Positions 3,847-62,672 of a stretch of 64,000 bases of DNA are shown here, piece by piece. Below the pieces are notes generated by a model. That model searched no databases and was not told the origin of the DNA. It saw only the letters and a list, made by a program, of their open reading frames with translations. Each line of letters starts with the position of its first letter. Position 1 is the first letter of the stretch. The position numbers and the translations under genes were made by a program. Origin of the DNA: Limnochordia bacterium (GTDB lineage: Bacteria; Bacillota; Limnochordia; DTU080); NCBI GenBank assembly GCA_050951545.1, contig JBMNJG010000012.1, positions 320,001 to 384,000 on the forward strand, in the 5' to 3' direction.

Positions 3847-3849
3847 GAG

Positions 3850-7729: not shown

Positions 7730-8149
7730 CTAGTTTCCGACGATGTTGGCTAGCCGTTTTCCAAGGTTCTCCGCGTCCACTGGCCTGGAGACAGCGGCGA
7801 AATCTTGAACCAAGGCACCTTGTTTTTCCAACTCAGCCATCAAAAGGCGCAGGCTGCGGGCGTTTCCCCACAGCAGTTTGGGCCGAACAAAGGCCACACA
7901 TGCTTTGCCTTCCAGGCGTGAGAGGCGTTTGAGCATTTGCCCGATGTCGTCCGCGATAGCACCACCGAAAAACCCAATCACCGGACTACCTACACAGACA
8001 AGATCGAATGGTGCGGCAGAGAAATGAATTGCAGAATCCTGTGCTTCAAGCAGCTGTACGTCGTAACCGACAGTCCGCAAACCACGCCCAAGCGCCTGAG
8101 CTAGCAAGGCCATACGTCCCACTGCACTGTAGACTACTAAAGCACGCAT
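7730..8149 (-). CDS. flavodoxin-like protein
   Basis: [29 protein letters not shown], a flavodoxin-like pattern with a degenerate phosphate loop; RBS GGAGGT before ATG 8149. Confidence 0.65.
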
Positions 8150-8196
8150 CTCGACACCTCCAACAGGCGCGCCCGACCATACCCGGAACCCTTTCG

Positions 8197-9648: not shown

Positions 9649-9825
9649 CTCGCTCGTTTGTCACGCCTTCTTGGCATGGGGCAAGAACCCTCACTTGGAG
9701 GGCTCGTAGCGCGCGACACTGTGCGGTTCATTAGAAGAACATGACGATTTATCATTTCTCCACCTGCTGCCAGATAACCTGCCATGTACACTGATAAGCG
9801 AGCCAAGCAGATCTGGCGTGCGTAT

Positions 9826-29251: not shown

Positions 29252-30067
29252 CTAGAAGGCTGGCACCACGGCGCCCTTGTACTTGCTGCGGATGAACTCC
29301 CTGACCGCAGAGGACTGCAGGGCTTTCGCTAGCTTGGCGATATCCGCGTTGTTCTTGTCGGCATTTCTTACAGCCAGTACATTGGCGTAGGGCGAATCGG
29401 CACCCTCAATCAGAATGGCGTCCTTTAGGGGATCGAGCTTGGCCTCTAAGGCGAAGTTGGTGTTGATTACCGCCGCGTCCAGATCTGGCAGTGAACGGGG
29501 TAGCTGAGCAGCTTCCAGCTCCCTGAATTTGAGGTTCTTGGGATTCCCGACGATGTCAAACACCGTGGCACTCAGGCCTGAACCTGCTTTCAGCTTGATC
29601 AGTCCGGCCTTCTGAATGAGCAGCAGGGCTCGTCCCCCGTTGGTGGGGTCATTAGGGATACCGATAAGTGCGCCGTTCTTGAGACTTTTAAGGTCCTTTA
29701 CCTTGCGAGAGTAGACGCCCATCGGTTCCACATGCACCTTGGCTACCCAGGTGAGGTTCAACCGGCGTTCTGTGGAGAAGGTCTCTAGATATGGAACGTG
29801 TTGAAAGAAGTTGGCGTTTAGTTCCCGATCTGCCAGAGCAAGGTTCGGGCGCACGTAGTCGGTAAACTCGATGATCTGCAGGTTGATCCCATCTTTAGCC
29901 AGAATCGGCTTAACTACGTTCAGAATCTCCGCATGCGGTACGGGGCTGGCCCCCACTTTGAGCACTTTTGCGGCAGCTCCCGCAAACACACTACCACCGA
30001 CAACGACCAGACACAATACAGAGAAAACGAGACTGCGACGACGGATACCTGCAAGACTCGACTGCAT
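29252..30067 (-). CDS. metQ: methionine ABC transporter substrate-binding protein
   Basis: LKVGASPVPHAEIL, DYVRPN, ANFFQHVPYL, PNDPTNGGRAL, AVINTN. Confidence 0.95.
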   Translation of the reverse strand: MQSSLAGIRRRSLVFSVLCLVVVGGSVFAGAAAKVLKVGASPVPHAEILNVVKPILAKDGINLQIIEFTDYVRPNLALADRELNANFFQHVPYLETFSTERRLNLTWVAKVHVEPMGVYSRKVKDLKSLKNGALIGIPNDPTNGGRALLLIQKAGLIKLKAGSGLSATVFDIVGNPKNLKFRELEAAQLPRSLPDLDAAVINTNFALEAKLDPLKDAILIEGADSPYANVLAVRNADKNNADIAKLAKALQSSAVREFIRSKYKGAVVPAF

Positions 30068-30105
30068 GTTCTTATTCCCCTTTCCTGATGCTGCAGATGA
30101 TCATC

Positions 30106-30807
30106 TTATCTCACGCGGTGATCCAAGCGGCGGGCCAACCTGTTGCCCAGTGCTTGCATCACTTGTACCAAGAGCACGAGAACCAGGACCGTGGCCAACA
30201 TGATGTCACCGCGAAAGCGCTGGTAGCCATAACGAATGGCCAAGTCACCGAGCCCGCCTCCTCCTACTGCGCCTGCCATCGCCGAGTACCCGATTAGGTT
30301 GACCGCAGTTATGGTGGCTCCCAGTACCAGCGACGGTAAGGCTTCCGGCAAGAGCACCTTCCAGATGATTTGCCTTGGTGAAGCTCCCATGGCTTGAGCG
30401 GCTTCGATCACACCGCTGTCTACCTCCAGTAGCGATGATTCCACCAATCTGGCCACAAAAGGAATGGCCGCTGCCGTCAAAGGTACCATTGCCGCTGCCG
30501 TACCTATTGACGTGCCCACGATAAGACGCGTGAGCGGGATGATCGCTACGAGCAAGATAATGAAGGGAATCGAGCGCCCGACATTGACGATGATGCCCAG
30601 TATCTGATTGAGCCAGGAACATGGCCACAAATGGTTTGGTCCAGTGATCACGAGAGCAATCCCCAGAGGTATTCCGCCGAGCTCGGCCAGCACGAGGGAA
30701 AGGCCTACCATGTATAGGGTTTCCTGCAATCCCTGTGCAAGCAGGGATCGCGTCATTGGGTTGAATACACCCTGTAGAAGATCTGCCACCTTGTCCACCC
30801 CCCTCAC
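30106..30807 (-). CDS. metI: methionine ABC transporter permease
   Basis: RSIPFIILL, GTSIG, EAAQAMGA, SAMAGAVGGGGLGDLAIRYGYQR. Confidence 0.95.
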   Translation of the reverse strand: MRGVDKVADLLQGVFNPMTRSLLAQGLQETLYMVGLSLVLAELGGIPLGIALVITGPNHLWPCSWLNQILGIIVNVGRSIPFIILLVAIIPLTRLIVGTSIGTAAAMVPLTAAAIPFVARLVESSLLEVDSGVIEAAQAMGASPRQIIWKVLLPEALPSLVLGATITAVNLIGYSAMAGAVGGGGLGDLAIRYGYQRFRGDIMLATVLVLVLLVQVMQALGNRLARRLDHRVR

Positions 30808-31940
30808 TTATCCAGCGCAGCGAATCGATCTGAGCGTATATGCTCGGAGTTGCCTAGGACCTCCACATCCACGCCAGCGCGACTGAGATGCAGCAAGGCT
30901 GCTTCCACGTCCGACGGCTCTCCTGCTAGTTCGACGATCAGGGTTCCCCACGGCTGCTCTTGCACGCGATCAATGCGGCCGTAGAGAATATTGGGCATTA
31001 CAGGAAGCTGCCGGGCTAGCTCAGCAATGATGGGTCTCTCAGCGACGTCACCAAGGAAGGTGAGCTTGACCAGCCTTCTACCCGGATGAGTCCCCCGATC
31101 TAGCAAAGCCGGAGGTATCTCAGCCTCCATCTGTCCCTTGAGCAGCCGACGAGCCATCTTGCTTTGAGGATGCGTGAAGACCCGTGGGGTGTCACCGACC
31201 TCGACCAAGTGCCCCTCATCGATGACCGCCACCTTATCGCAGATTTCCCGAATGACGCCGAGTTCGTGGGTGATCATCACAATGGTGAGACCCATACGTC
31301 GGTTGATGTCGCGTAACAGGTGCAACACCTGTAGCGTTGTCTCGGGATCAAGCGCTGAGGTAGCCTCATCTGAGAGCAGCACATCCGGTTCGTTCGCTAG
31401 TGCCCGAGCAATACCGACACGCTGTTTTTGACCACCAGAAAGCTGTGTTGGATAGGCGTCGGCTCGTTCGGCTAACCCCACAAGCTCTAGGAGTTCCCTC
31501 ACACGCACCTGAATCTGGGGCTTCGCAACCCCCGCAATCTCGAGTGGAAAGGCCACGTTGCCAGCTACGGTCCGGGACGCGAGAAGGTTGAAGTGCTGGA
31601 AGATCATTCCGATTCGCCGCCGCGCCACCATTAGTTCTGACCCGGACAGGCGCGTCATTTCCTGACCTGCTACCTCAACCACGCCGCAATCAGGCCGTTC
31701 CAGCATGTTGATACAGCGGATAAGCGTGCTTTTTCCCGCTCCTGAAAGACCCATGATGCCAAAGATGACTCCCCGGTCGATATCGAGGCTTATTCCGCTG
31801 AGGGCTTCGATGCGTCCAACACCCGAGCCGAAACTCTTGGCGACATCGCGCAAACGGATAATCGGTGAGTCCGTGGCACATGACGAACGTCCATCCGGAA
31901 AAAGAACAACCTCTCCGGATGGAAGAGGTTTATTTCTCAT
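30804..31940 (-). CDS. metN: methionine ABC transporter ATP-binding protein
   Basis: GLSGAGKST, FQHFNLL, LSGGQKQRV, DEATSALDP, C-terminal NIL domain. Confidence 0.95.
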   Translation of the reverse strand: MRNKPLPSGEVVLFPDGRSSCATDSPIIRLRDVAKSFGSGVGRIEALSGISLDIDRGVIFGIMGLSGAGKSTLIRCINMLERPDCGVVEVAGQEMTRLSGSELMVARRRIGMIFQHFNLLASRTVAGNVAFPLEIAGVAKPQIQVRVRELLELVGLAERADAYPTQLSGGQKQRVGIARALANEPDVLLSDEATSALDPETTLQVLHLLRDINRRMGLTIVMITHELGVIREICDKVAVIDEGHLVEVGDTPRVFTHPQSKMARRLLKGQMEAEIPPALLDRGTHPGRRLVKLTFLGDVAERPIIAELARQLPVMPNILYGRIDRVQEQPWGTLIVELAGEPSDVEAALLHLSRAGVDVEVLGNSEHIRSDRFAALDK

Positions 31941-31953: not shown

Positions 31954-32068
31954 CTCTCATCTCCCTGGAGATAACAATGCTATCCCCAGCAGGAATTGGC
32001 ACCTGACGCCTATAGGCGCTGGTTGCCGGGCTTCATCGGGCCAGTCCCTCCACCTCTCTTGATAAGAG
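31954..32068 (-). promoter_or_regulatory. SAM-I (S-box) riboswitch aptamer
   Basis: CTCTTATCAAGAGAGGTGGAGGGACTGGCCCGATGAAGCCCGGCAACC...GGTGCCAATTCC...GATGAGAG; upstream of metNIQ; terminator at 31899-31930. Confidence 0.97.
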
Positions 32069-40419: not shown

Positions 40420-40964
40420 TCTATCTGCAACTGCTCTGGGTCTTCTTCCGACTCGGTCTGTTCACCGTAGGGGGCGGATACGCCATGCTGCCGCTGATCC
40501 AAGCAGAGATTGAGGGCCGTGGCTGGATTACGGCCGCCGAATTCGTCGACATGCTGGCCATCGCTGAGATGACGCCCGGCCCTGTGGGCGTCAATACTGC
40601 TACCTTCGTAGGATACCGTTTAGCGGGGGTTGCGGGCGCAGTTCTCGCCACCACTGGTATTGTCCTGCCATCATTGATCTTTGTACTACTGATCTCGAAA
40701 GCCTTGGACAAGTTTCGTGACCATCCCACGGTAGAGGCTATTCTATGCGGGATCCGACCCGTTGTAGCTGGTCTGATCGCTTCCGCGGCGGTATTCGTCA
40801 CTCAAGCGGCCATTGTCAGTGAAGGGTCCGCTCAGGGCATGCTCAGAGTGGATCCGGTGGCCATCATTCTCTGCCTCGCTAGTATCGTCGCAGTGGGCAG
40901 ATACCGGCTACATCCTATCAGTGCCATCGTGGCAGCGGGGATAGTGGGAACGCTTGTTTTCTGA
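40416..40964 (+). CDS. short-chain chromate transporter, subunit 2
   Basis: GLFTVGGGYAMLP, EMTPGPVGVNTATFVG; ATGA overlap with the upstream gene. Confidence 0.9.
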   Translation: MIYLQLLWVFFRLGLFTVGGGYAMLPLIQAEIEGRGWITAAEFVDMLAIAEMTPGPVGVNTATFVGYRLAGVAGAVLATTGIVLPSLIFVLLISKALDKFRDHPTVEAILCGIRPVVAGLIASAAVFVTQAAIVSEGSAQGMLRVDPVAIILCLASIVAVGRYRLHPISAIVAAGIVGTLVF

Positions 40965-41016
40965 CCTTCGGCGTCTGTCCTAGCCTCGCACAGCGGTACT
41001 TCATGCCGATCCACGT

Positions 41017-41045
41017 AAAGAGGGCGCTCAGCGCCCTCTTTTATT
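41017..41045 (+). terminator. intrinsic terminator after the chromate transporter pair
   Basis: AAAGAGGGCGC-TCA-GCGCCCTCTTTTATT. Confidence 0.85.
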
Positions 41046-41244
41046 GTATGCTGGGCCGTGGCCACAGGCCGCTGATGTTCGTTAGGAATCACAAAAGGCG
41101 TAGCAAATGTCACAAGGATTCCAGCCCTTTCCATTCTAGAATGAACACCGCCCCATGTATAGGACCATACTCCTACTTATGGGACCAATGTCGGGCGTGC
41201 ACGTCGATGGTGCCGCATCGAAGGACTCTCGGAGGAGTGTCAAC

Positions 41245-41943
41245 ATGCTGATACCAAAATCAGATCGAGCAAAGACGGGTATTCTTGATCAGGACGCCCT
41301 AGCTCGATATGCCTTGGAGCACCTAATAAGCCAATCATCGGATCTGCAACTGGTGGTCCAATGGAAGGGAATTCCCGCGACTTGCGAGCTGATGTCCGTG
41401 GAGATGGACGTGTTGACGGTCTCCATCGAGACAGTAGAGGCCTCAGGAGTAGCGCTTGGGCCCTCCCTTGCTCTGTTGTCTGCGCATGTTCCGGTACTGG
41501 CCACCAGCGCCTGCATGGAGCCAGCCTTGGTGGTGGATTGCTTACAGGCGGGTGCAAAGGGCTTCGTCTGGAAGGGTGTCGACACGCAAGGTCTCATGCA
41601 AGCGGTAAGGGCTGTACTGGCTGGCGACCGGCCAATCATGCCCTCTATGGCTGACCGACTGGTTTCCTATGTATTGAGTCACGACATCCGCCAGATGGAT
41701 CGCTGCTCCGAGCTGACGGGCCGAGAGAACGAGGTGCTTGGACTTATTGCCAATGGGCTGAGTAACAAGGAGATTGCGGCGACCTTGAGCCTCAGTGTAC
41801 GTACAGTGAAAGCGCATGTGAGTAACGTGCTGCGAAAACTCGACGTAGCTGATCGTACGCAAGCCGCTCTCGTAGCAGTCAGCATGGATCCGGAGAGCCG
41901 TCCCCTGCAGCGGTACTACCGTCGTGGTACCAAGGTACGATAG
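41245..41943 (+). CDS. NarL/LuxR-family response regulator with a degenerate receiver domain
   Basis: C-terminal LTGRENEVLGLIANGLSNKEIA..LSVRTVKAHVSNVLRKL; receiver AGAKGFVWK, but DVLTVS replaces DxxxxD; ATG 41245 with GGAGG RBS. Confidence 0.9.
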   Translation: MLIPKSDRAKTGILDQDALARYALEHLISQSSDLQLVVQWKGIPATCELMSVEMDVLTVSIETVEASGVALGPSLALLSAHVPVLATSACMEPALVVDCLQAGAKGFVWKGVDTQGLMQAVRAVLAGDRPIMPSMADRLVSYVLSHDIRQMDRCSELTGRENEVLGLIANGLSNKEIAATLSLSVRTVKAHVSNVLRKLDVADRTQAALVAVSMDPESRPLQRYYRRGTKVR

Positions 41944-42035
41944 CCCAGCGCCCTAAGGAACAATGGAAAGATGAAGGCGAAGGTCATAATGTAGGAGATG
42001 CCTGAATGATCTGCGGCACTGGAAGGGGTCCCGAG

Positions 42036-42950
42036 ATGCGCCCAAACCTCATGTGGAGACTGGCAGTGACTCTCGCCCTTGTCTCAGCGTGGTTTTTGCT
42101 CGGAGCTGTCGGCTGGGGCCGTGCTGAGGAAGCTCAGCTCAGAGTGACTCCAAGTCAGGTCAGTGTGGCGATTGATCCGTCTCGCGTCTCCTCTCTGGAA
42201 TTGGCGGGCGGACTGCAGGCATATCTCTTGTTTCCGACGGACGCTGAACAGCTCACCCTTGGTTTTTCACTCACCCCACTGATCGACCAAGCAAGTGGCC
42301 GCGCTCTGCCAGCAGACCGACTTCTGGTAGGTGTGGGTGATCTGCAGCCTGTGTCCGCAATGGGCCAACAGCCGGTTCCGTTGTCAGCATCCGGACCCAC
42401 GATAGTTCAGATTGGTGTGCAAGCGGGGGCTTTCGACTCCCCAGGGCTTTACCAAGGGCGGTTGTGCCTAAGCGCAAACGGCGGCAGTGTGGAGGCAGTT
42501 GCGAATGTCGACGTGCAGATCGAGATACTGCCGTGGGCGGCCATTCGTCAGCTCGCACCGTATCCACTGGTAGTAACTTCACAGGACATTCCTGGTCCTG
42601 ATGCCGTGATGAGTAGTGAGGAGCAGTACGTTCTTCTTGTGGCGGGTAATCACCGCTGGCAACTGGTGGTTCAGGCACCTGATGGACTTCAGCCCCAATC
42701 TGGTCCCGCCACGGCACCGCTCGCTGGCCGTTTAGACATGAGAGTCTTCCCGAGCGATTGGGTGCAACCAGTGACAAATGGCTTTGCGAAGCTCACTGAA
42801 GATCCTGCAGTGCTAGCGGTCGGTAAACCGACTGGCGATTGTGCGGACGGCTGGGTAGCGGTGAGCCTTGAGGTGCGTATGCCCTACGGGCGCCACCAAG
42901 CCGCAGGAGCCTACAGCGGAGATCTGACGCTGGCAGTGAGACCGTACTAG
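42036..42950 (+). CDS. secreted two-domain beta-sandwich protein (putative minor pilin/adhesin)
   Basis: Signal peptide; two domains ending in PGLYQGRLCL and AGAYSGDLTL. Confidence 0.6.
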   Translation: MRPNLMWRLAVTLALVSAWFLLGAVGWGRAEEAQLRVTPSQVSVAIDPSRVSSLELAGGLQAYLLFPTDAEQLTLGFSLTPLIDQASGRALPADRLLVGVGDLQPVSAMGQQPVPLSASGPTIVQIGVQAGAFDSPGLYQGRLCLSANGGSVEAVANVDVQIEILPWAAIRQLAPYPLVVTSQDIPGPDAVMSSEEQYVLLVAGNHRWQLVVQAPDGLQPQSGPATAPLAGRLDMRVFPSDWVQPVTNGFAKLTEDPAVLAVGKPTGDCADGWVAVSLEVRMPYGRHQAAGAYSGDLTLAVRPY

Positions 42951-43039
42951 AATCACCAACACAGTGGCACCTCTCACAGCAGACCGCGCGTGGTTGCTGC
43001 GGGTGCAAATAAAACAAGGAAGTACAGGAGGAATCACGG

Positions 43040-43804
43040 ATGAAAAGGCTCTTTCTTGTAGCTCTCGCTCTTTGCTTGGTACTCGCAGCAGTGCCAGCAA
43101 TGGCGGAAAACCTGCTTGACGGCAGGCAGATAACGGTAGGGCCGTGGATTGTCATCGAGACAGAGGGTTACGCAACCGGAGCTCCGCGCTACTTCAACCC
43201 TGGTGAGGCTTGGGGTAACCAGGAAACCCAGGTGAGACTACCGATGAGTGCGCTTATCCCCTGCTACTTGGAGATGCTATTGCAGGGCAATGACGTCAAT
43301 GCCCTTCTTCAGAGCTGGGGTCCGGATGCCAACGCTGACTATGCCCCTGGTAACATGTACCTGGCCTTTCACCCCGAGGTGGGCGGCTACATCCATGCTG
43401 ACTGGAGTCTGTACCCGGATAGCCATGACAACAACTACGAGGCTCCCCTGGGCGACGACTCCTTCATTCGTGGGTGCGATACCTTCAAGACTCAGCTCTG
43501 GTCCAACATGAACTACAAGTACACTGTGTCAGTGAAGGATGGCGGGCTCAAGGGCGGACTCGATGCCAACGCCGTTCTCCCGGTAGACATGCGTGCTGCT
43601 GTGTCCGTCACCGACCCGGGACTGGCTAATGCTGTGTGGGGCGGCACCCATACCTTCCTCGCTGACGGCGACGCAGTCCTGGTCGATGGCGGGAACTTCC
43701 TCCAGTCCAGGGTGATCTACCAGCAGTTCCGAGTACCGTTCAACCGGAGTTTCTCGGCTGGTCATTACACAGGTGAGATCACCTTTACCGCTGCTACGAT
43801 CTAG
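43040..43804 (+). CDS. secreted protein, putative major fimbrial subunit
   Basis: Signal peptide MKRLFLVALALCLVLAAVPAMA; C-terminal AGHYTGEITFT; strong RBS AGGAGG; downstream stem-loop. Confidence 0.6.
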   Translation: MKRLFLVALALCLVLAAVPAMAENLLDGRQITVGPWIVIETEGYATGAPRYFNPGEAWGNQETQVRLPMSALIPCYLEMLLQGNDVNALLQSWGPDANADYAPGNMYLAFHPEVGGYIHADWSLYPDSHDNNYEAPLGDDSFIRGCDTFKTQLWSNMNYKYTVSVKDGGLKGGLDANAVLPVDMRAAVSVTDPGLANAVWGGTHTFLADGDAVLVDGGNFLQSRVIYQQFRVPFNRSFSAGHYTGEITFTAATI

Positions 43805-43825
43805 TTTCGGGAGAGATGCACGACA

Positions 43826-43856
43826 GAGGGGTCGGACGCGCCCGACCCCTTTTCTT
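43826..43856 (+). terminator. intra-operon stem-loop/terminator after the putative major subunit
   Basis: GAGGGGTCGG-loop-CCGACCCCTTTTCTT. Confidence 0.8.
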
Positions 43857-43899
43857 GTAAGAGGCGCTGCTGATACGGACGATCAGGGAGTGAGTGACC

Positions 43900-44721
43900 A
43901 TGAAAAGATGCTGCATGTGGATGGTGGCAGCCATCCTGATGAGTGTGGCTGTGGGCGGCCCAGCACTGGCCGCCGGGTACCAGCCTATAAAGGTGGAGCC
44001 TTCTCGATTCGTCTTTGAAGGAAAGCCTGGGGAGCAGATAACGGGCTCCATCGTAGTGCGCAACACAGGTCAGGAACCAGCCACTCCTCAGGCGCTTCTG
44101 AGCGATTGGACTCTTGATGAGGGCAACAGACTGGTTGTCCTGGAAGCTGGTAGTCTCGATTCGTCACTGGAGGGGTGGATCAAGTTTAACCCGCGCAGGT
44201 TTCAGATGCAGCCTAACGCGGCTCAGACCGTGCGCTTCACCGTCAAGATACCTCATGACGCTCAGCCCGGTGAACGCCGCGGCATGATCGCCTTTGAGCA
44301 GATCGTCCCCTACGACGAAGGCGGAGTTGGAGCCACAGCTCGGGTACAGGTAACGAGTACGATCTACGTAGCCGTGCTACCCATAGAACGACATATCGAC
44401 ATCATCGGTCTTCACATACAGCCAAACGAAGACACCCGGACCTCAACGTTGGTGCTTCAGGTCAAGGGGACGGGTACTGGTCATTACCGCGGCGTGGGTC
44501 GCTTCCAGATTCTGCCCGATGGTGATGAGACACCTCTTGCCTCAGGAGATCTGGAACCACTTGTCGTCATGCCAGGTGTGGCGAGTCGCTTTGGTGGTAG
44601 CGTCGAGTATGTGTTAGAGCCGGGCCGCTATCGCCTCGCTGTTGAGATCATCTCTGAGGAAGCAGGTAGTCTACCTCTTCACAGGATCTATGCTTTCGAA
44701 GTGCCCACGACCGAAGTCTAA
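43900..44721 (+). CDS. PapD-like/DUF916-like periplasmic pilus chaperone
   Basis: Signal peptide; IKVEPSRF..VRNTG..WIKFNPRRF....QTVRF..P....GERRGMIAFE; second Ig domain V.GTG..HYR..LVVMPG. Confidence 0.68.
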   Translation: MKRCCMWMVAAILMSVAVGGPALAAGYQPIKVEPSRFVFEGKPGEQITGSIVVRNTGQEPATPQALLSDWTLDEGNRLVVLEAGSLDSSLEGWIKFNPRRFQMQPNAAQTVRFTVKIPHDAQPGERRGMIAFEQIVPYDEGGVGATARVQVTSTIYVAVLPIERHIDIIGLHIQPNEDTRTSTLVLQVKGTGTGHYRGVGRFQILPDGDETPLASGDLEPLVVMPGVASRFGGSVEYVLEPGRYRLAVEIISEEAGSLPLHRIYAFEVPTTEV

Positions 44722-44738
44722 GCTGGAGGAGTCTCGCC

Positions 44739-47732
44739 ATGCGCTTTTTTCGCTCCACCGGGATCCTCATCACCATGTGCCTTGTGTGGCTCATGGCATG
44801 GAGCAATGAGCCAGCAAGGGCCTCGTTATCCGAGATGGATACCAGTGTGGTTCGATTGGATATCAACGACCGCAAGTTCAGTGAGGATTTTGAGTTGTAC
44901 GACGATGGAGAGACGGTCCTTCTTCCCCTTAGCCAGGTTGGACAGCTCTTGGACGCGAAGGTGAACCTAGATCCAGTGCTGATGGCCGCCACCGTTGTTC
45001 GCCCCTGGGATGGGCTAGAGGGGCTCGTTGACCTTCAGCGCCAGGTCTGCTTCTGGGGAGAAGAGCAGCTCGTCATGTCACCTCATGCTGAGCTTGGGCC
45101 AGGCGATTTCTACGTGCCGCTACCGATCGTGGAACGGCTTATGGACGTACAGGCAGTATGGAAGCCCGAGACACAGGTGCTGCGGATCACCGTAGGTCGT
45201 CAACTCAGCAAGCTACGGCCAGCAGCAGGCACACCGAGTGACTCCGTAGTAACCAGCGAAGAGTTTGAGCCCTCACCCACTCGTACGCCGCCCATGGTCA
45301 GCTTGGGGGCGATCCAATACGTGCTCAGGCATGAGTTGACCGTGCAAGGGTCTGAAGAGCATAGGCAGGATAGCCTGGCCTTGTCCGCACACTGGCAAGC
45401 GGCGGGCATTCCGGTGGATATCGCAGTCAGTGCAACCGATGTCCTGTCACCGCACCCGAGGTGGGAGCTCAAGCGCGCGACGGCCACCTACCTCTCTCCT
45501 GACGTGGAGGTGGTTGCTGGCGACACGAGTCTGAGCCTGGGTAGGGTGCTGCAGAGCAAGGAGATTCGTGGCCTGCGACTGGCAGCGCCTCCCGGTTGGA
45601 CATCTGGTGTTTTGCATGCGGTCACGACGATCGAAGGGTGGGTCGCCGACGGTTCCGAGGTCGAACTCCGCGTCAACGGAGCCTACTTTGGCAAGCAAGT
45701 GGCGACAGACGGGTATTACGCCTTCAGACATGTGCCTCTGCAGATCACCAGAGCAAACCGTCTGGAGATTGTGGTCATTGAGACGAGCGGCTTGCGCCGA
45801 GTGGAGACGCGTGTTCTAACGGCGACGCCGCGCCTTCTATCTGCGGGGAAGCTGCAGGCCTCAGCGGGTGGAGGTTGGGTGAGATCCGAGAAGACTGGGG
45901 AGTGGGATTCGGCAGTGATGGGCGCATCTGCCTATACGGGTGTCACCTCGTGGCTTACAGTGGGTGGCGAACTAGCCCGGCAGGTAATTCTCGATGGCAG
46001 CCAAGATCATCCGGATCATCTGGCAGGTGCCATAGGACTCGCCCTGCGGGCCAGCGACGGCCTAGTCTTTGCTCTGGACTGGTTGGCCAGTCAACCACAG
46101 GGAGCAGTCGGTGCGCCCGCACAGGGAGCTGAGTTGACTGCTAGCCTGCGCATGGGACGTACATCGTGGCAGAGCATGATCTTCTACCGAGAGCCAGACC
46201 TGTACCTGTTTTCACCGGGTGCGCCAGATACGCAAGGTTTTCGGGTGGTCGGCGAGTACAACATCAACCGCGCCTGGAGTCTGCAAGGGTCCTATGAACT
46301 AGCCACTTCGGTCAGCGACTCATCTCGGTCTCCAAGAACCAGGGTTGGTGGCGTGCTGCAATGGACTCCTTCGCTTGATCGCTCCGTGGTGCTTCGCCTG
46401 AATCACGTCCCTAGAGATAGAGACAGGGTTTCCTTGACGCACCGCTACAGCAATGTACAAAAGGGTACTGAACTGAAGTCTGAGTCAGAGGCGACGTGGG
46501 TGGAACGTCCCCAGGCGTCGCCTGTTTTGACCAATGTCAGTGCCCGCTTAGAGTTCGACCAGGCTCTAGACAGCGCAAGCTACCTGGGCCTACGCTACAG
46601 GGGGGTGGCAGATTGGCCTCTAGGCGGTGATCTTTCCCGGCGTGGCTTCGCACTGCTCACGAACACGGTCCAGGTCGACGCCACATGGATGCCAGGAACG
46701 TGGCACGTGTATGGAGCAGTGCAGATGACCGACGCTCGCGATACGAGCGGAGGAACGCCACCCTTCTACGAAAGCGGAGCTGTTCTCAGTATTTCGAGAA
46801 TCACCGGGGTGTGGGTCAGCGGTATGGCAAGCGAACTCATACACATGCGCCGCAACAGCACTCCTTTGGGTTCCATAGTCAACGGAGTCTATGTGGGAGC
46901 AAGACCCGAGCCCAAGGCTTTGGTCCTACTGAAGCTGGAGCACACTCAGCCTCTGTGGAGCGGCGTCTTTAGGGAGAGCATGGGCATCTCGCTGAGCGCT
47001 GATGGACAACTGAGAAATGGCTTCCATCTCAGTGCGTTGGGGCGTGTCACAGTAACGCATGCGCAGCCTGAATATTACCTTGGCGTCACACTTAGTCAGG
47101 GCATCGGCTTTTCCGAGGGAGGTGTCCGCGGTTTTCGGGTTGTTGACGGTCGGCCCCTTGGATACGTCACAGGCACCGTGTACATTGATGCCAATCGCAA
47201 CGGTCGGCGGGATGCGGGTGAGAAGACTGTGGCTGGGGCTCCAATCGCCTTGGCTGGTCGGCGTACCGTCACCGATCGCGACGGCAGGTACTGCTTTGAG
47301 TTTGTCAATCCGGGCACGTACCGGCTAGGGCTCGACCCTAACAAGCTGTCCGCTGACTACACCCCGTACAGCGACCCCGTGGTTATCCGCCTGCCCGCCA
47401 ACGCGAATCTAAGCCAAGATTTCGGCGTTACTTTGAACGGCACTGTGGAGGGCACGGTCTTCGTGGACCTCAATGGCGATGGCCTGTGGCAACCCGAAGA
47501 ACCTCGGCCAGCATGGGTCAAGGTGGCTCTGAATGGAACTATCGAGGCGTTCACGGATAGCCGGGGCAACTTCACCCTGAGCAACGTGAATCTCGGCACG
47601 TACCAATTGGCGGTCCCTGAGTCAAGTCTTCCTCCTGGAACTATAGCCCCTGCACCTATCGACATTAAGATCACGGAGGATAACCTGGATGTGTGGGGTA
47701 TACGAGTGCCGCTGACGCTTATGGGCAACTAG
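44739..47732 (+). CDS. large secreted usher-like outer-membrane protein with C-terminal SdrD-B/carboxypeptidase-regulatory-like domains
   Basis: Signal peptide; N-terminal small domains; GSEVELRVNG..DGYYAF..VPL..NRLEIVV..SG; long amphipathic beta-strand region; two GTVYID.N.NG..D.GE repeats. Confidence 0.65.
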   Translation: MRFFRSTGILITMCLVWLMAWSNEPARASLSEMDTSVVRLDINDRKFSEDFELYDDGETVLLPLSQVGQLLDAKVNLDPVLMAATVVRPWDGLEGLVDLQRQVCFWGEEQLVMSPHAELGPGDFYVPLPIVERLMDVQAVWKPETQVLRITVGRQLSKLRPAAGTPSDSVVTSEEFEPSPTRTPPMVSLGAIQYVLRHELTVQGSEEHRQDSLALSAHWQAAGIPVDIAVSATDVLSPHPRWELKRATATYLSPDVEVVAGDTSLSLGRVLQSKEIRGLRLAAPPGWTSGVLHAVTTIEGWVADGSEVELRVNGAYFGKQVATDGYYAFRHVPLQITRANRLEIVVIETSGLRRVETRVLTATPRLLSAGKLQASAGGGWVRSEKTGEWDSAVMGASAYTGVTSWLTVGGELARQVILDGSQDHPDHLAGAIGLALRASDGLVFALDWLASQPQGAVGAPAQGAELTASLRMGRTSWQSMIFYREPDLYLFSPGAPDTQGFRVVGEYNINRAWSLQGSYELATSVSDSSRSPRTRVGGVLQWTPSLDRSVVLRLNHVPRDRDRVSLTHRYSNVQKGTELKSESEATWVERPQASPVLTNVSARLEFDQALDSASYLGLRYRGVADWPLGGDLSRRGFALLTNTVQVDATWMPGTWHVYGAVQMTDARDTSGGTPPFYESGAVLSISRITGVWVSGMASELIHMRRNSTPLGSIVNGVYVGARPEPKALVLLKLEHTQPLWSGVFRESMGISLSADGQLRNGFHLSALGRVTVTHAQPEYYLGVTLSQGIGFSEGGVRGFRVVDGRPLGYVTGTVYIDANRNGRRDAGEKTVAGAPIALAGRRTVTDRDGRYCFEFVNPGTYRLGLDPNKLSADYTPYSDPVVIRLPANANLSQDFGVTLNGTVEGTVFVDLNGDGLWQPEEPRPAWVKVALNGTIEAFTDSRGNFTLSNVNLGTYQLAVPESSLPPGTIAPAPIDIKITEDNLDVWGIRVPLTLMGN

Positions 47733-47795
47733 GGCGCGCAGGCGCGGCCATTAGCTAGTGAACTGTGACGGGTAAGTAGTCTGTAGCGTGGTATG

Positions 47796-47821
47796 AAAAA
47801 GGGCGCCGACTTCGGCGCCTT
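47796..47821 (-). terminator. terminator of the 6S RNA (possibly bidirectional)
   Basis: AAGGCGCCGA-AG-TCGGCGCCC-TTTTT. Confidence 0.85.
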
Positions 47822-47830
47822 AAGATTAGA

Positions 47831-48004
47831 GACCGCCCTGCCGCTGCCCGTTCGATTTTCGAGAACCATCCCCCAAAGGTGGTTGTCCGCACAGCTGCTT
47901 TCAACGTCCAGGTGTGTATCCCGGCGTGTTGGCCACAACCGTATTGGATTCCCGAAATCACGCGATAGGTTCTGAAATGCGTGGGGCTGGCGCACAGCGC
48001 AGTC
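47831..48004 (-). ncRNA. ssrS: 6S RNA
   Basis: About 175-nt rod: 5' GACTGCGCTG pairs with 3' CAGGGCGGTC; internal AGAACC/GGTTCT and ACCACC elements typical of Firmicutes 6S; own promoter and terminator. Confidence 0.8.
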
Positions 48005-48013
48005 AGCATCATC

Positions 48014-48042
48014 ATCATACCCTTTGGAGGGCCGTTCTGCAA
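48014..48042 (-). promoter_or_regulatory. sigma-A promoter of the 6S RNA
   Basis: TTGCAG-17 bp-TATGAT. Confidence 0.7.
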
Positions 48043-48136
48043 GTCTAGATGCTGCCATCCCTGCCTTTTCTCCTAGACGGCTCGGGCCTGGTGCATTACC
48101 ATAAACACATGCACCCCGCTTATGGAGGTTTGATCT

Positions 48137-48772
48137 ATGGCCGTACACGTACGTACCTTCGTCGTCGGACCGATCGAGACCAACTGCTATCTGGTGATAG
48201 ACGATCGGAGCCAAAACGCTGTGGTTGTCGACCCGGGAGATACGTGCGCCACTCTTGAGGCGGCACTGGGCGAGGTGACCCTGACAGACATTCTGCTTAC
48301 ACATACCCACTTTGATCACATAGGCGGTGTCAATCGCCTGGTCGAGCTCACGGGTGCTCGGGTGTGGGCCCATAGGCTTGAGGCCGATTGGCTAGGCGAT
48401 CCCACACGCAACCTTTCAGCGGCTATGGAGGAGTACACCCCTTTGGTGCGCGTTCCTCGTCCCTCGGTTGTCCTCTGCGGTGGCGAGGAAACCCACCTAG
48501 TGGGACAGAGTCTACGAGTCGCGCATGCGCCGGGGCATACTCCTGGTCATGTCATCTATGTGCTCGGCGATATTGCCTTCGTGGGTGATGTTATCTTTCG
48601 CGGCTCTGTGGGGCGTACCGATTTCCCTGGCGGTGATAGCCAGACCCTTCTAGAGAGCATCGAAAGCCAAGTGCTGACGTTGCCCGCCCAGACTCGCTTG
48701 CTGCCTGGTCACGGCCCCACCACAACAGTAGGTAACGAACGCCAGCACAACCCGTTCGTGGCTGCCCGTTAA
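48137..48772 (+). CDS. MBL-fold metallo-hydrolase (glyoxalase II-like)
   Basis: TNCY, THTHFDHIGG, PGHTPG, GDVIF.GSVGRTD, PGHGP. Confidence 0.93.
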   Translation: MAVHVRTFVVGPIETNCYLVIDDRSQNAVVVDPGDTCATLEAALGEVTLTDILLTHTHFDHIGGVNRLVELTGARVWAHRLEADWLGDPTRNLSAAMEEYTPLVRVPRPSVVLCGGEETHLVGQSLRVAHAPGHTPGHVIYVLGDIAFVGDVIFRGSVGRTDFPGGDSQTLLESIESQVLTLPAQTRLLPGHGPTTTVGNERQHNPFVAAR

Positions 48773-61815: not shown

Positions 61816-62672
61816 TGGATCATTCTCTAGCTGATGCCTATGCTGCTTGCGCGGCGCACACTCGTGCTGAAGCCAAGAACTTCTATTACGCGTTTATTCT
61901 GTTGCCGCCGTCACGACGAAGAGCCATCTATGCACTGTATTCGTTCTGCCGTACCGTGGATGATGCAGCCGATCTTGCGCCTTCTGTGGCGGAAGCGGAG
62001 TCTCAGCTCAACAGCCTACGCCATGATCTGACATTGTGCCTTTCAGGATGTCCGTCGGGCCCGCTGTTTGCTGCTCTTGCGGACACCATTGCCCGCTTTG
62101 GCGTGAAGTCTGAGCATCTGATGGCAGTGATCGACGGAGTTCAGCAAGACCTCACTGTCACGCGTTACGACAACTTTGAACAGCTACGAGAGTATTGCTG
62201 GAAAGTGGCCAGTGCTGTGGGATTACTCTCATTGCCGGTTTTTGGCTATCGCGACCCGCAGGCTGTGGAGTATGCTGAAGATCTAGGTCTCGCCATGCAG
62301 CTTACGAACATTTTGCGTGACATCAAAGAGGATCTCGAGCGGGGGCGTATCTACTTGCCCCAGGATGAGCTGTCAAGTTACGGCATCAGGGAGGAGGCAC
62401 TAGCCAGCGGTGTGGTAGACGAGGCATTCCGCGATTTTCTCGCATTTCAGGTGCGGCGGGCGCGTCACTACTTTCAGTCCGGTAGCCGCCTCATTCCGTT
62501 GGTATCGTACTCCTCTCGCATTTGTCCCATGATGCTGCAAGCCTTGTACTCTCGAGTCTTGGACCACATTGAGCGAGCAGGCTACGACGTTTTCTCTCAG
62601 CGACGAGGGCCTTCAGATGCCGAGAAGGTATTCCTCCTCTTAGGAGCGTGTCTGCGATGTCTTCTTCCGTAG
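61815..62672 (+). CDS. hpnD: presqualene diphosphate synthase
   Basis: NFYYAF, YSFCRTVDD, YC.KVASAVG, LGLAMQLTNILRDIKED..RGRIYLP; GTG overlaps the upstream TAG. Confidence 0.85.
   Translation: MDHSLADAYAACAAHTRAEAKNFYYAFILLPPSRRRAIYALYSFCRTVDDAADLAPSVAEAESQLNSLRHDLTLCLSGCPSGPLFAALADTIARFGVKSEHLMAVIDGVQQDLTVTRYDNFEQLREYCWKVASAVGLLSLPVFGYRDPQAVEYAEDLGLAMQLTNILRDIKEDLERGRIYLPQDELSSYGIREEALASGVVDEAFRDFLAFQVRRARHYFQSGSRLIPLVSYSSRICPMMLQALYSRVLDHIERAGYDVFSQRRGPSDAEKVFLLLGACLRCLLP

What the first reader, a model, noticed from the sequence alone, without database searches (positions are those of the whole stretch)
41245..47732. Chaperone-usher-like pilus locus in a spore-forming Firmicute
Seen: four co-oriented genes, all with Sec-type signal peptides and no LPxTG or C-terminal TM anchor. 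They encode a two-domain beta protein, a one-domain protein with a strong RBS and a downstream stem-loop, a two-Ig-domain PapD/DUF916-like protein, and a 997-aa protein with an usher-like 'VELRVNG..G.Y.F..VPL..N' segment, a long amphipathic beta-strand region and C-terminal SdrD-B-like repeats. The two subunit candidates carry a terminal G-x-Y-x-G-x-[LI]-x-[LF] strand three times, similar to Csu/spore-coat-U pilins. Known: chaperone-usher pili need an outer membrane and are described mainly in Proteobacteria, Cyanobacteria and Deinococcus-Thermus. The rest of the window (T-box, S-box, CotF) is Bacillota. Inference: a divergent chaperone-usher fimbrial system in a diderm Firmicute, and the best candidate for an undescribed system here.
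Basis: partly seen in the sequence, partly recalled or inferred. Interest (0 to 1): 0.85.

Follow-up and report, generated by a model that had tools for sequence, protein, structure and literature searches.

The report
Usher-type pilus operon, two-membrane Firmicute
An uncultured two-membraned, spore-forming Firmicute from digesters carries a four-gene operon that looks like a very divergent version of the chaperone-usher machines that build adhesive hairs on E. coli, and its helper protein most resembles the one that builds the recently described WxL pili of Gram-positive bacteria.

Summary
Four co-oriented secreted-protein genes (42006-47732) follow a LuxR-type regulator gene.

- **Usher candidate (997 aa).** It models confidently as an N-terminal domain, six strands, a beta-sandwich, about 24 more strands and two C-terminal sandwiches. 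All 15 best PDB fold matches are FimD or PapC (E 4.6e-27 to 1e-12). Its family profile matches E. coli ushers (hhalign 95.1%).
- **Chaperone candidate (275 aa).** It is a soluble two-Ig-domain protein. It is closest to Enterococcus WxLIP (Z 16.4), then to pilus chaperones such as CfaA, FimC and CsuC (Z 11-14).
- **Conservation.** A chaperone-like gene lies directly upstream of the usher-like gene in 19 of 19 related loci. All 14 carrier genomes in a 401-genome sample encode BamA.
- **Host.** The genome also has LpxC and Spo0A, and its relatives are labelled Limnochordia.
- **Differences from classical systems.** No protein passes Pfam's usher, PapD or pilin thresholds. The usher's end domains are of other families, the barrel looks like about 30 strands, and the subunits are a new family.

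My verdict is a new variant of the chaperone-usher pathway, unreported in Bacillota in my literature searches. It may link Gram-negative pili to Gram-positive WxL pili. Subunit folds and strand exchange remain untested. This scan noted similar operons before on other DNA.

The parts
41155..41943 (+). LuxR/GerE-family response regulator, probable regulator of the operon (start at 41155 or 41245)
   Evidence: GerE E 1.3e-20. Response_reg scores 30.2 bits, exactly at the cut-off. NarL/FimZ-type NCBIfam matches all fall below their cut-offs. A 40%-identical regulator lies upstream of the related locus L036, and a LuxR regulator lies beside the variant locus L057.
42006..42950 (+). Two-module secreted subunit (314 aa; probable real start at 42036). 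Candidate tip or adaptor subunit.
   Evidence: No Pfam or NCBIfam family. The G-x-Y-x-G motif sits at residues 147 and 301. Positional homologues with the same two modules occur in 15 other loci (alignment A7). BLAST-detectable homologues occur in only 2 loci. The ESM Atlas record starts at residue 11. Six of the 30 nearest clusters are ones in which 25% of members carry SCPU; this is a lead only.
43026..43031 (+). AGGAGG ribosome-binding site of the major-subunit gene
   Evidence: Read directly from the sequence; 8 nt before the ATG.
43040..43804 (+). Candidate major fibre subunit (254 aa) of a new family
   Evidence: None of the 23 family members matches a pilin family in Pfam. No PDB sequence matches the family profile at E<=10. 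The invariant C-terminal strand FRVP...G.Y.G.I.F.A.T[IL] ends the protein, and a conserved N-terminal D-G plus alternating hydrophobic stretch is present (A4). The cysteines in IPCY and GCD co-vary. The gene lies upstream of the chaperone gene in 16 of 19 loci by BLAST. The only two RNA-library contigs that lie on the locus fall in this gene; this is a weak hint.
43825..43858 (+). Hairpin plus U-run after the major-subunit gene; candidate attenuating terminator
   Evidence: An 11-bp stem in the minimum-energy fold, -26.8 kcal/mol for the 71-nt window, z -1.46. Not listed by the consensus scan.
43900..44721 (+). Soluble periplasmic two-Ig-domain chaperone candidate (273 aa from the ATG at 43900)
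   Evidence: AF2 pLDDT 88.8. VIA Z 16.4 and 15.8 to E. faecium WxLIP, and Z 13.9-11.3 to CfaA, YadV, FimC, CsuC, Caf1M, PapD and EcpB. Foldseek E 1.2e-10 to WxLIP and 4.5e-9 to CfaA. Of 18 relatives, 15 hit WxLIP_PGBD and 5 hit PapD_N, nearly all below threshold. No C-terminal membrane helix.
44739..47732 (+). Usher-like outer-membrane assembly platform (997 aa)
   Evidence: AF2 pLDDT 85.5. Foldseek ranks 1-15 are all FimD or PapC, E 4.6e-27 to 1e-12. hhalign against FimD/HtrE/SfmD gives 95.1%, E 3.2e-8, over residues 118-471. The family profile against PDB sequences gives PapC E 2.5e-4 and FimD E 8.4e-3.
44832..45203 (+). N-terminal periplasmic domain of the usher-like protein (aa 32-155), copper-amine-oxidase-N-like
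   Evidence: Cu_amine_oxidN1 E 1e-4, 22.6 bits, below the cut-off of 24.2. The same family is found in 25 of 35 relatives at E<=0.01. Modelled as strands plus two helices.
45297..47114 (+). Beta-barrel region (aa 187-792): 6 strands, inserted domain, then 24 strands by DSSP
   Evidence: VIA Z 15-18 to many outer-membrane barrels over residues 182-792. The conserved ...QGIGF ending at F791 is a candidate internal beta-signal.
45618..45818 (+). Beta-sandwich inserted after barrel strand 6 (aa 294-360); plug-domain equivalent holding the VELRVNG motif
   Evidence: The family profile aligns this region to the FimD 256-365, PapC 293-371 and Caf1A middle-domain chains. hhalign pairs VELRVNG...VPL with the FimD plug.
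47154..47720 (+). Two C-terminal beta-sandwich domains (aa 806-900 and 901-994), in the position of usher CTD1 and CTD2
   Evidence: SdrD_B E 1.4e-13 and CarboxypepD_reg E 3.5e-10. Strands in the model. SdrD_B is found in 35 of 35 relatives.

Best explanation
The locus encodes a very divergent chaperone-usher-type machine that builds a surface fibre in a diderm Firmicute of the Limnochordia group.

**Shown**
- The 997-aa protein is a homologue of fimbrial ushers. It has the same five-part plan: a periplasmic N-domain, a barrel, a sandwich domain inserted after strand 6, and two C-terminal sandwich domains.
- The 275-aa protein has the two-Ig-domain fold of pilus chaperones and no membrane anchor.
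- The gene order subunit, subunit, chaperone, usher is conserved.
- The host genome has genes for outer-membrane biogenesis.

**Inferred**
1. All four proteins are exported by the Sec pathway.
2. BAM inserts the usher into the outer membrane, using the conserved ...GIGF that ends the barrel.
3. The periplasmic chaperone caps the 254-aa subunit by donating a strand next to the subunit's conserved C-terminal strand.
4. At the usher, that strand is exchanged for the conserved N-terminal D-G plus alternating-hydrophobic stretch of the next subunit, and the growing fibre passes through the barrel.
5. The two-module 314-aa protein is a tip or adaptor subunit.
6. The strong ribosome-binding site of the 254-aa gene and the hairpin after it give an excess of major subunit.
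7. The LuxR-type regulator controls the operon.
For: **Usher**
- AF2 model, pLDDT 85.5, with the domain order above.
- Foldseek ranks 1-15 are all FimD or PapC chains, E 4.6e-27 to 1e-12. The first other outer-membrane barrel scores E 6.4e-8.
- hhalign of the 39-member family against three E. coli ushers gives 95.1%, E 3.2e-8, over 319 columns. It pairs the GD...RG strands and the plug.
- The family HMM against PDB sequences gives PapC E 2.5e-4 and FimD E 8.4e-3.
- Three of 35 relatives hit PF00577 at E 3e-4 to 1e-3, all in the same region.

**Chaperone**
- pLDDT 88.8.
- The top two VIA rows are WxLIP (Z 16.4 and 15.8). Most of the remaining 48 listed rows are chaperone-usher chaperones, at Z 13.9 to 11.3.

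**Synteny**
- A chaperone-like gene lies directly upstream of the usher-like gene in 19 of 19 loci.
- A homologue of the 254-aa subunit lies upstream of that in 16 of 19 loci by BLAST.

**Link to recognised systems**
- In two related loci the usher-like gene sits beside a chaperone that passes Pfam's PapD_N cut-off (30.6 and 23.1 bits) and beside DUF4402 subunits.

**Outer membrane**
- Own genome: BamA 180 bits and LpxC 304 bits.
- BamA is found in all 14 carrier genomes of the 401-genome sample: 13 at E<=1e-20 and one at E 1.2e-14. The sample as a whole has 97 of 401 at E<=1e-20.

**Architecture of classical ushers** is taken from passages of PMC3394950.
Against: - No protein of the locus passes a curated threshold for Usher, PapC_N, PapC_C, PapD_N, PapD_C or any pilin family.
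- hhalign of the chaperone family against FimC/YadV/SfmC gives only 15% (E 1.8e-3).
- By DSSP the barrel has about 30 strands, not 24. Superposition on ushers is loose: rmsd 10-17 A and TM 0.3-0.47. VIA scores generic porins as high as ushers on the barrel alone.
- I could not fold either subunit, so the incomplete-Ig fold is not shown.
- No filament, binding or expression experiment exists. The RNA evidence is two contigs from one run.
Confidence: 0.8

Rival explanations
1. The machinery is chaperone-usher-like, but its product is not an adhesive pilus. It could be an amorphous or sheet-like surface or spore layer, comparable to Caf1 capsule fibres or to the spore-coat-U material that a chaperone-usher system exports in Myxococcus. 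That Myxococcus comparison is recalled, not checked.
For: - The host has Spo0A, with 3 matches and a best E of 3.6e-35.
- The subunit is large (232 mature residues) and unlike known rod pilins.
- The chaperone's long paired strands at 124-137 and 146-159 recall the long-loop (FGL) class. The preprint compares that class with WxL chaperones (passage).
Against: - Nothing links the operon to sporulation. Its neighbours are housekeeping genes.
- A two-module extra subunit conserved upstream fits a tipped fibre.
- The RNA-library contigs come from a fermenter community, not from spores.
Confidence: 0.12
2. This is a WxL-type surface complex without a secretion pore. The chaperone-like protein and the two subunits would assemble on the wall as in Gram-positive Csc/Elr clusters. 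The 997-aa protein would be an unrelated outer-membrane porin or adhesin that merely shares the operon.
For: - The chaperone's best structural matches are WxLIP.
- WxLIP_PGBD is the commonest Pfam hit in its family, 15 of 18 members.
- The barrel alone matches porins and TonB-dependent receptors at Z 17-18.
Against: - hhalign gives 95.1% to ushers across the first barrel strands and the plug.
- The Foldseek gap between ushers and other barrels is about 19 orders of magnitude.
- The chaperone has no membrane anchor, whereas 96.7% of WxL chaperones do (preprint section 13).
- The locus has no LPxTG protein, and the subunits show no WxL Pfam match.
- The barrel gene is tightly coupled to the chaperone gene in 19 of 19 loci.
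Confidence: 0.05
3. The similarity is convergent or a modelling artefact. AlphaFold would have built an usher-like shape from a thin alignment, and the four proteins would have unrelated roles in the envelope.
For: - The alignment behind the model has only 39 sequences.
- pTM is 0.60.
- All Pfam hits to Usher and PapD_N within the window's own subfamily are below threshold.
Against: - Sequence-only tests that do not depend on the model point to the same family and the same region.
- The operon order is conserved down to 25-35% identity.
- Related loci carry a PapD_N chaperone above threshold.
Confidence: 0.03

Closest known systems
Classical chaperone-usher pili of E. coli (Fim, Pap; usher FimD/PapC, chaperone FimC/PapD)
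   Same: - The usher has five parts in the same order: N-domain, barrel, sandwich inserted after strand 6, and two C-terminal sandwiches (against passages of PMC3394950).
- Profile-level homology covers the first barrel strands and the plug.
- The chaperone is a soluble two-Ig-domain protein.
- The operon is ordered subunit, chaperone, usher.
- A strongly translated major-subunit gene is followed by a hairpin.
   Different: - No curated Pfam threshold is met.
- The N-domain is copper-amine-oxidase-N-like, and the C-domains are SdrD-B/CarboxypepD_reg-like.
- The barrel has about 30 strands rather than 24.
- The subunits are about 230 and 280 mature residues and belong to no pilin family.
- The host is a sporulating Firmicute.
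Archaic (sigma) chaperone-usher pili, e.g. Acinetobacter Csu with SCPU-domain subunits
   Same: - This is the widest-ranging chaperone-usher class. It is reported outside Proteobacteria, in Cyanobacteria and Deinococcus-Thermus (passage of PMC4654587).
- CsuC is among the chaperone's fold matches, at Z 13.0.
- The subunits end in a G-x-Y-x-G/D strand.
- The language-model neighbours of both subunits include clusters in which 14-25% of members carry SCPU, and clusters from Deinococcota and Cyanobacteriota; these are leads only.
   Different: - No SCPU Pfam match in either subunit or in 23 relatives.
- The subunits are much larger.
- Bacillota is not among the phyla listed for this class.
WxL / Elr pili of Enterococcus and other Bacilli (WxL pilins plus DUF916-DUF3324 chaperone WxLIP/ElrE)
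   Same: - The chaperone's nearest solved structures are E. faecium WxLIP (Z 16.4, with 231 of 251 residues aligned).
- WxLIP_PGBD is the commonest Pfam hit across its family.
- Both systems are in Bacillota.
- Those pili assemble by chaperone-guided donor-strand exchange (preprint 10.64898/2026.10.17.759780: abstract, sections 12 and 13, and passages).
- Each subunit here keeps one conserved W-x-L.
   Different: - An usher is present here; the Elr system has none.
- The chaperone here lacks the C-terminal membrane helix that 96.7% of WxL chaperones carry.
- There is no LPxTG partner.
- There is no WxL Pfam domain and no second W-x-L motif.
- The preprint found its system almost only in Bacilli.
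DUF4402-subunit chaperone-usher-like loci in other BamA-positive genomes of the same phylum (L052, L058)
   Same: - The usher-like protein belongs to the same profile family, with SdrD-B-like C-terminal domains.
- The order is the same: subunit, chaperone, usher.
- The L058 chaperone hits WxLIP_PGBD (24.7 bits) and PapD_N (23.1 bits) almost equally.
   Different: - Their subunits are small DUF4402 proteins (E down to 4.2e-21), and their chaperones reach the PapD_N cut-off.
- The window's subfamily has about 250-aa subunits with no known family.

Membership tests
Chaperone-usher pathway: usher (Pfam PF00577 with PapC_N PF13954 and PapC_C PF13953) | Match to the Usher HMM above its gathering score | tested here: not met
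   The 997-aa protein gives no PF00577 hit at E<=1. The whole genome gives no match. Three of 35 relatives score 18.3-20.1 bits against a cut-off of 27.1.
Chaperone-usher pathway: usher (Pfam PF00577 with PapC_N PF13954 and PapC_C PF13953) | Detectable homology to characterised ushers | tested here: met
   hhalign of the family against FimD/HtrE/SfmD gives 95.1%, E 3.2e-8, over 319 columns. HMM against PDB sequences gives PapC E 2.5e-4 and FimD E 8.4e-3. Foldseek ranks 1-15 are all FimD or PapC.
Chaperone-usher pathway: usher (Pfam PF00577 with PapC_N PF13954 and PapC_C PF13953) | Outer-membrane barrel with a plug domain inserted early in the barrel. Insertion after strand 6 in FimD/PapC is recalled; the 24-stranded pore and 83-residue plug are from PMC3394950. 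| tested here: met
   A sandwich domain at residues 294-360 follows six long strands at 187-283. It aligns to the plug regions of FimD and PapC.
Chaperone-usher pathway: usher (Pfam PF00577 with PapC_N PF13954 and PapC_C PF13953) | 24-stranded barrel | tested here: inconclusive
   DSSP on the model gives 6 + 24 = 30 long strands. No coordinates were available to check barrel closure. Superposition on ushers has rmsd 10-17 A.
Chaperone-usher pathway: usher (Pfam PF00577 with PapC_N PF13954 and PapC_C PF13953) | PapC_N-type N-terminal domain and PapC_C-type C-terminal domains | tested here: not met
   The domains sit in the same positions and are of similar size, but Pfam assigns them to Cu_amine_oxidN1 and to SdrD_B/CarboxypepD_reg.
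Chaperone-usher pathway: periplasmic chaperone (PapD_N PF00345, PapD_C PF02753) | Two Ig-like domains in the PapD arrangement; soluble and periplasmic | tested here: met
   The model has pLDDT 88.8. VIA gives Z 11.3-13.9 and rmsd 4.0-5.1 A over 175-199 residues to CfaA, YadV, FimC, CsuC, SafB, Caf1M, PapD and EcpB. It has a signal peptide and no anchor.
Chaperone-usher pathway: periplasmic chaperone (PapD_N PF00345, PapD_C PF02753) | Match to PapD_N above the gathering score | tested here: not met
   The window's protein gives no PapD_N hit. Five of 18 relatives hit it, best E 1.3e-3. hhalign against FimC/YadV/SfmC gives 15%. Chaperones of the related loci L052 and L058 do pass, at 30.6 and 23.1 bits.
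Chaperone-usher pathway: periplasmic chaperone (PapD_N PF00345, PapD_C PF02753) | Conserved basic pair that anchors the subunit's C-terminus (Arg8/Lys112 in PapD). The numbering is recalled; the pair is named in the preprint passage. | tested here: inconclusive
   An R or K in the N-terminal EPSRF strand is present in 17 of 18 members. hhalign places it opposite the TR of the GATRVIY strand (FimC row). The second basic residue was not identified.
Chaperone-usher pathway: subunits | Incomplete Ig-like fold completed by a donated strand, with an N-terminal extension for exchange | not testable with these tools
The sequence shows a conserved C-terminal strand at the very end of the protein and a conserved N-terminal D-G plus alternating-hydrophobic stretch.
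Chaperone-usher pathway: host | An outer membrane | tested here: met
   BamA E 1.1e-52 and LpxC E 1.1e-90 on the same contig. Limnochordia are diderm by electron microscopy (passages of PMC11456536).
WxL / Elr pilus system | DUF916 (PF06030) plus DUF3324 (PF11797) chaperone with a C-terminal membrane helix | tested here: not met
   The fold is closest to WxLIP. However, PF06030 scores 15.3 bits against a cut-off of 27.3, there is no PF11797 hit, and none of the 18 members has a C-terminal hydrophobic helix.
WxL / Elr pilus system | Pilins with a WxL domain (PF13731), i.e. two W-x-L motifs (passages of PMC9772566) | tested here: not met
   No PF13731 hit in either subunit or in 23 relatives. 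The mature part of each subunit holds one W-x-L (W122 in the 254-aa protein, W218 in the 314-aa protein), and it is conserved. The fold was not tested.
WxL / Elr pilus system | LPxTG anchor protein in the cluster and no usher | tested here: not met
   No LPxTG in any of the four proteins. An usher homologue is present.
Archaic (sigma) chaperone-usher pili | SCPU-domain (PF05229) subunits | tested here: not met
   No Pfam hit. There are only language-model neighbours in which 14-25% of members carry SCPU.

The most novel reading that the evidence does not exclude
This operon family is the two-membrane counterpart, and possibly a surviving ancestral form, of the Gram-positive WxL/Elr pilus.

It pairs a soluble chaperone of the WxLIP structural type with a true usher homologue in diderm Bacillota. 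On this reading, chaperone-usher pili and WxL pili are one lineage. [quoted passage not shown]

A second novelty is an usher with about 30 strands and swapped end domains.
Probability: 0.35. Interest if true: 0.9.

Novelty: new variant of a known kind. Interest (0 to 1): 0.75.

Why it matters
**Reported range.** Chaperone-usher pili are reported from Proteobacteria, Cyanobacteria and Deinococcus-Thermus (passage of PMC4654587). I found no paper describing one in Bacillota, using the full-text searches.

**The October 2026 preprint.** It shows that Gram-positive WxL pili assemble by chaperone-guided donor-strand exchange without an usher. It finds their chaperones to be a sequence family disjoint from chaperone-usher chaperones and almost confined to Bacilli.

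**What this locus adds.** An usher homologue sits next to a WxLIP-like but soluble chaperone, in the Firmicute lineages that kept the outer membrane. Whether the two pilus systems share ancestry therefore becomes directly testable. The locus also bears on the proposal that Firmicutes descend from a diderm ancestor, cited in PMC11456536.

**Practical consequence.** Standard Pfam models miss these systems. PapD_N passes its cut-off in 2 of 80 BamA-positive genomes, and Usher passes in none of the proteins I scanned. Surface-fibre machinery in diderm Bacillota is therefore under-annotated.

Tried and rejected
**Structure and complex prediction**
- Complex prediction of the chaperone (residues 26-273, alignment A3) with the 254-aa subunit (residues 23-254, alignment A4) returned "no answer": score 0.00 in both runs, and the controls were not folded. 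This is evidence neither for nor against binding.
- Both structure-prediction jobs went to the usher and the chaperone, so neither subunit could be folded.

**Sequence searches that found nothing useful**
- The subunit-family profile against PDB sequences gave 0 hits at E<=10.
- Pfam on all 23 subunit relatives gave only six single-member chance hits, at E 0.057 or weaker.
- The chaperone-family profile against PDB sequences gave only two weak hits: a viral methyltransferase at E 0.07 and EcpB at E 0.14.
- PF00577 gave no match in the genome.
- An Rfam scan of 40900-43100 at E<=1, made because earlier notes mention c-di-GMP riboswitches before similar operons, gave 0 matches.

**Structural comparison**
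- A VIA second look at the usher model does not separate ushers from other barrels by Z (porins 17-18, FimD 15.8). Ushers are distinguished only by aligned length, 539-612 residues.

**RNA evidence**
- The one RNA run (X20) covers only 43007-43243 and 43352-43565.
- The rest of the locus has no RNA cover, which shows nothing. DNA carry-over in that library was not excluded.

**Literature**
- One search was badly framed and returned only Usher-syndrome papers.
- A search for DUF4402 found no paper.

**Other**
- The listing of cluster members gave names only of the kind "hypothetical protein [Bacillota/Firmicutes bacterium]".
- The consensus terminator scan did not list the hairpin after the 254-aa gene.
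- I considered and rejected sortase-dependent pili (no LPxTG).
- I did not look for type IV pili or curli; no component of either turned up in the Pfam or NCBIfam scans of the five genes.

Full report
**1. What is in the sequence**

Five co-oriented genes lie between 41155 and 47732:
- a LuxR/GerE response regulator (GerE E 1.3e-20; receiver domain exactly at Pfam's cut-off);
- four genes for exported proteins of 314, 254, 275 and 997 residues.

All four exported proteins have an N-terminal hydrophobic segment. None has an LPxTG motif or a later membrane helix. The 254-aa gene has an AGGAGG site 8 nt before its ATG. It is followed by an 11-bp G+C-rich hairpin with a U-run (z only -1.46; not listed by the consensus scan).

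The neighbouring genes are ordinary chromosomal genes: chromate transporter halves upstream, and a 6S RNA and an MBL-fold hydrolase downstream.

**2. The host**

- The closest named relatives of three of the proteins are MAG proteins labelled Limnochordia bacterium.
- The window's genome (3.64 Mb, 93.9% complete) encodes BamA (E 1.1e-52) and LpxC (E 1.1e-90) on one contig. It has three Spo0A_C matches.
- Limnochordia are diderm by electron microscopy, according to passages of PMC11456536.
- Near-identical DNA is held by 19 public runs at half or more of the sampled words; the 20 runs that hold any part come from 18 studies. The sources are bioreactor, digester, landfill and sludge metagenomes.

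**3. The 997-aa protein is an usher homologue**

Pfam sees only a weak copper-amine-oxidase-N-like domain (residues 42-149) and SdrD-B/CarboxypepD_reg-like domains (813-990).

An exhaustive HMMER search with residues 160-800 found 40 representatives at E<=1e-3 among 1.84 billion. Of these, 37 are 855-1090 residues long. Among the 35 I scanned:
- all 35 have SdrD_B;
- 25 have Cu_amine_oxidN1;
- 3 hit Pfam Usher below threshold, all in the same region.

A 39-sequence alignment gave an AF2 model with pLDDT 85.5. Its parts are:
- an N-domain at 36-151;
- six long strands at 187-283;
- a beta-sandwich at 294-360, which holds the VELRVNG motif;
- 24 more long strands at 372-792, ending in the conserved ...QGIGF;
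- two sandwiches at 808-994.

This is the five-part plan of PapC and FimD as described in passages of PMC3394950.

Several tests point to ushers:
- Foldseek ranks 1-15 are all FimD or PapC chains (E 4.6e-27 to 1e-12). The best other outer-membrane barrel scores E 6.4e-8.
- VIA-align shows that the barrel alone is generic (porins Z 17-18). Only ushers align over 539-612 residues.
- Independently of the model, the family HMM hits PapC (E 2.5e-4) and FimD (E 8.4e-3) among PDB sequences.
- hhalign against FimD, HtrE and SfmD gives 95.1% (E 3.2e-8) over residues 118-471, pairing the GD...RG strands and the plug.

**4. The 275-aa protein is a soluble pilus-type chaperone, nearest to WxLIP**

The AF2 model (pLDDT 88.8) has two Ig-like domains. 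VIA-align gives:
- Z 16.4 and 15.8 to Enterococcus faecium WxLIP;
- Z 13.9 down to 11.3 to CfaA, YadV, FimC, CsuC, SfaE, SafB, Caf1M, CupB2, DraB, PapD and EcpB (Foldseek agrees).

Across 18 family members, 15 hit WxLIP_PGBD and 5 hit PapD_N, nearly all below threshold. hhalign against three E. coli chaperones gives only 15%, although the aligned register is sensible. None of the 18 has a C-terminal hydrophobic tail.

**5. The operon is conserved and confined to BamA-positive genomes**

I examined 19 related loci from 15 genomes.
- A chaperone-like gene lies immediately upstream of the usher-like gene in 19 of 19.
- A homologue of the 254-aa subunit lies upstream of that in 16 of 19 by BLAST. 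Two more loci have one recognisable only by its C-terminal motif, and one has DUF4402 genes instead.
- A two-module secreted protein in the place of the 314-aa protein is present in 15 other loci.
- Four genomes carry two complete loci each, and two more carry a second, partial one.

In a 401-genome sample of the phylum, 14 genomes, counting this one, have a match that covers the barrel.
- All 14 have BamA: 13 at E<=1e-20 and one at E 1.2e-14.
- The sample as a whole has 97 of 401 at E<=1e-20.
- Related genomes are not independent, so this is a pattern and not a statistic.

Two more distant loci tie the family to recognised systems:
- In L052 the usher-like gene is flanked by a chaperone that passes PapD_N (30.6 bits) and by four DUF4402 genes.
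- In L058 the chaperone scores 24.7 bits on WxLIP_PGBD and 23.1 bits on PapD_N. The subunits are strong DUF4402 matches.

One family member is named "molecular chaperone [Halothermotrichaceae bacterium]" by NCBI. Halothermotrichaceae belongs to the diderm Halanaerobiales; that placement is recalled. PapD_N passes its cut-off in only 2 of 80 BamA-positive genomes, so standard models miss these systems.

**6. The subunits**

The 254-aa family (23 sequences) has no Pfam or PDB sequence match. Its conserved features are:
- a strand FRVP...G.Y.G.I.F.A.T[IL] at the very C-terminus;
- an N-terminal D-G followed by alternating hydrophobic residues;
- one invariant Trp in a W-x-[LIV] context;
- two cysteines that are present or absent together in 22 of 23 members.

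These features fit a periplasmically folded pilin with a donor strand, but the fold was not tested. Language-model neighbours are unnamed clusters from Omnitrophota, Cyanobacteriota, Deinococcota and Bacillota. The nearest named clusters are SCPU (14-25% of members) and WxL; these are leads only.

In one metatranscriptome run, the only two contigs that lie on the 7.2-kb stretch are identical to the window. Both fall inside or just before the 254-aa gene. This is a weak hint of expression.

**7. Mechanism**

Shown:
- homology of the 997-aa protein to ushers and a shared domain plan;
- the chaperone fold and its lack of a membrane anchor;
- conserved gene order;
- outer-membrane genes in the host.

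Inferred:
- Sec export of all four proteins and BAM insertion of the usher;
- donor-strand complementation by the chaperone, probably through its long strand pair at 124-137 and 146-159;
- exchange at the usher for the N-terminal strand of the next subunit;
- the 314-aa protein acting as a tip or adaptor subunit;
- the hairpin after the major-subunit gene setting subunit excess;
- control of the operon by the LuxR-type regulator.

**8. Comparison with what is known, and novelty**

Archaic chaperone-usher systems are reported from Proteobacteria, Cyanobacteria and Deinococcus-Thermus (passage of PMC4654587). Full-text searches for chaperone-usher together with diderm Firmicutes, Negativicutes, Limnochordia, Halanaerobiales or Terrabacteria found no description of such a system in Bacillota. 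The papers I opened mention the pathway only for E. coli or in general terms. I did not look at supplements.

The preprint 10.64898/2026.10.17.759780 reports three things. I read its abstract, sections 12 and 13, and passages.
- WxL pili assemble by chaperone-guided donor-strand exchange without an usher.
- The system is almost confined to Bacilli.
- Its chaperones are disjoint from chaperone-usher chaperones at E<=1e-20, and 96.7% of them are membrane-anchored.

The present family has a WxLIP-like but soluble chaperone next to an usher homologue in diderm Bacillota. That suggests, but does not prove, common descent of the two systems.

It fails strict membership of the classical, archaic and WxL families on curated sequence criteria. 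I therefore file it as a new variant of the chaperone-usher kind.

**9. Earlier notes of this scan**

Earlier notes describe similar operons on other genomes: Firmicutes from digesters, WOR-3, Margulisbacteria-like, Omnitrophota and Bipolaricaulota. One of them (e1-2551512) proposes the same link to WxL pili. Another (e1-896936) read its barrel as not being an usher. I reached my reading before I saw these notes, and I did not test their loci.

Noticed in passing
window 47826-48008 (-): A 6S RNA gene (Rfam RF00013, 68.3 bits, E 2.2e-11) lies directly after the usher-like gene on the other strand. A terminator-like hairpin sits at 47819-47802. The 214-aa ORF listed at 47729-48373 (-) overlaps it and is probably not a gene.
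   Followed up: partly
window 31954-32068 (-): A SAM riboswitch (87 bits) lies upstream of metN, metI and metQ-like ABC transporter genes at 29255-31940. No T-box reached the gathering score anywhere in the window.
   Followed up: partly
window 60103-63994 (+): One 570-aa ORF matches IspH in its first half (E 1.3e-96) and squalene synthase HpnC in its second half (E 1.1e-89). It is followed by HpnD- and HpnE-like genes. This is a possible fused isoprenoid and squalene/hopanoid module. The fusion could also be an ORF-calling artefact.
   Followed up: no
window 8200-9648 (-): A 483-aa protein resembles ADP-specific phosphofructokinase/glucokinase, a type mostly known from archaea (that distribution is recalled). 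TIGR02045 gives E 1.8e-89, below its cut-off.
   Followed up: no
window 41155-41943 (+): The receiver domain of the LuxR-type regulator scores exactly at Pfam's cut-off (30.2 bits). By eye, the usual phospho-acceptor position may not be Asp, so this may be an atypical, phosphorylation-independent regulator. I did not check it by alignment.
   Followed up: no
L052 (G336:C26) 4079-10356 and L058 (G284:C12) 1740-6802: These are chaperone-usher-like loci of a second type in BamA-positive genomes of the same phylum. They hold small DUF4402 subunits (E down to 4.2e-21), a PapD_N-passing chaperone and an 857-1011-aa usher-like protein with SdrD-B-like C-terminal domains. No paper in the library mentions DUF4402.
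   Followed up: partly
L057 (G096:C40) 508-5906: A genome of the same class as the window has a further variant. It comprises a 297-aa weakly PapD_N-like protein, a 935-aa protein with an NPCBM_assoc N-domain and CarboxypepD_reg/SdrD_B C-domains, a 257-aa protein and a LuxR response regulator.
   Followed up: partly
alignment A4 (254-aa subunit family): The cysteines in the IPCY and GCD motifs are both present in 18 members and both absent in 4. One member keeps only the second. This pattern suggests a disulfide bond.
   Followed up: partly
window 43007-43243 and 43352-43565: In a biogas-fermenter metatranscriptome run, the only contigs lying on 41000-48200 are two pieces identical to the window, within and just upstream of the 254-aa gene.
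   Followed up: partly
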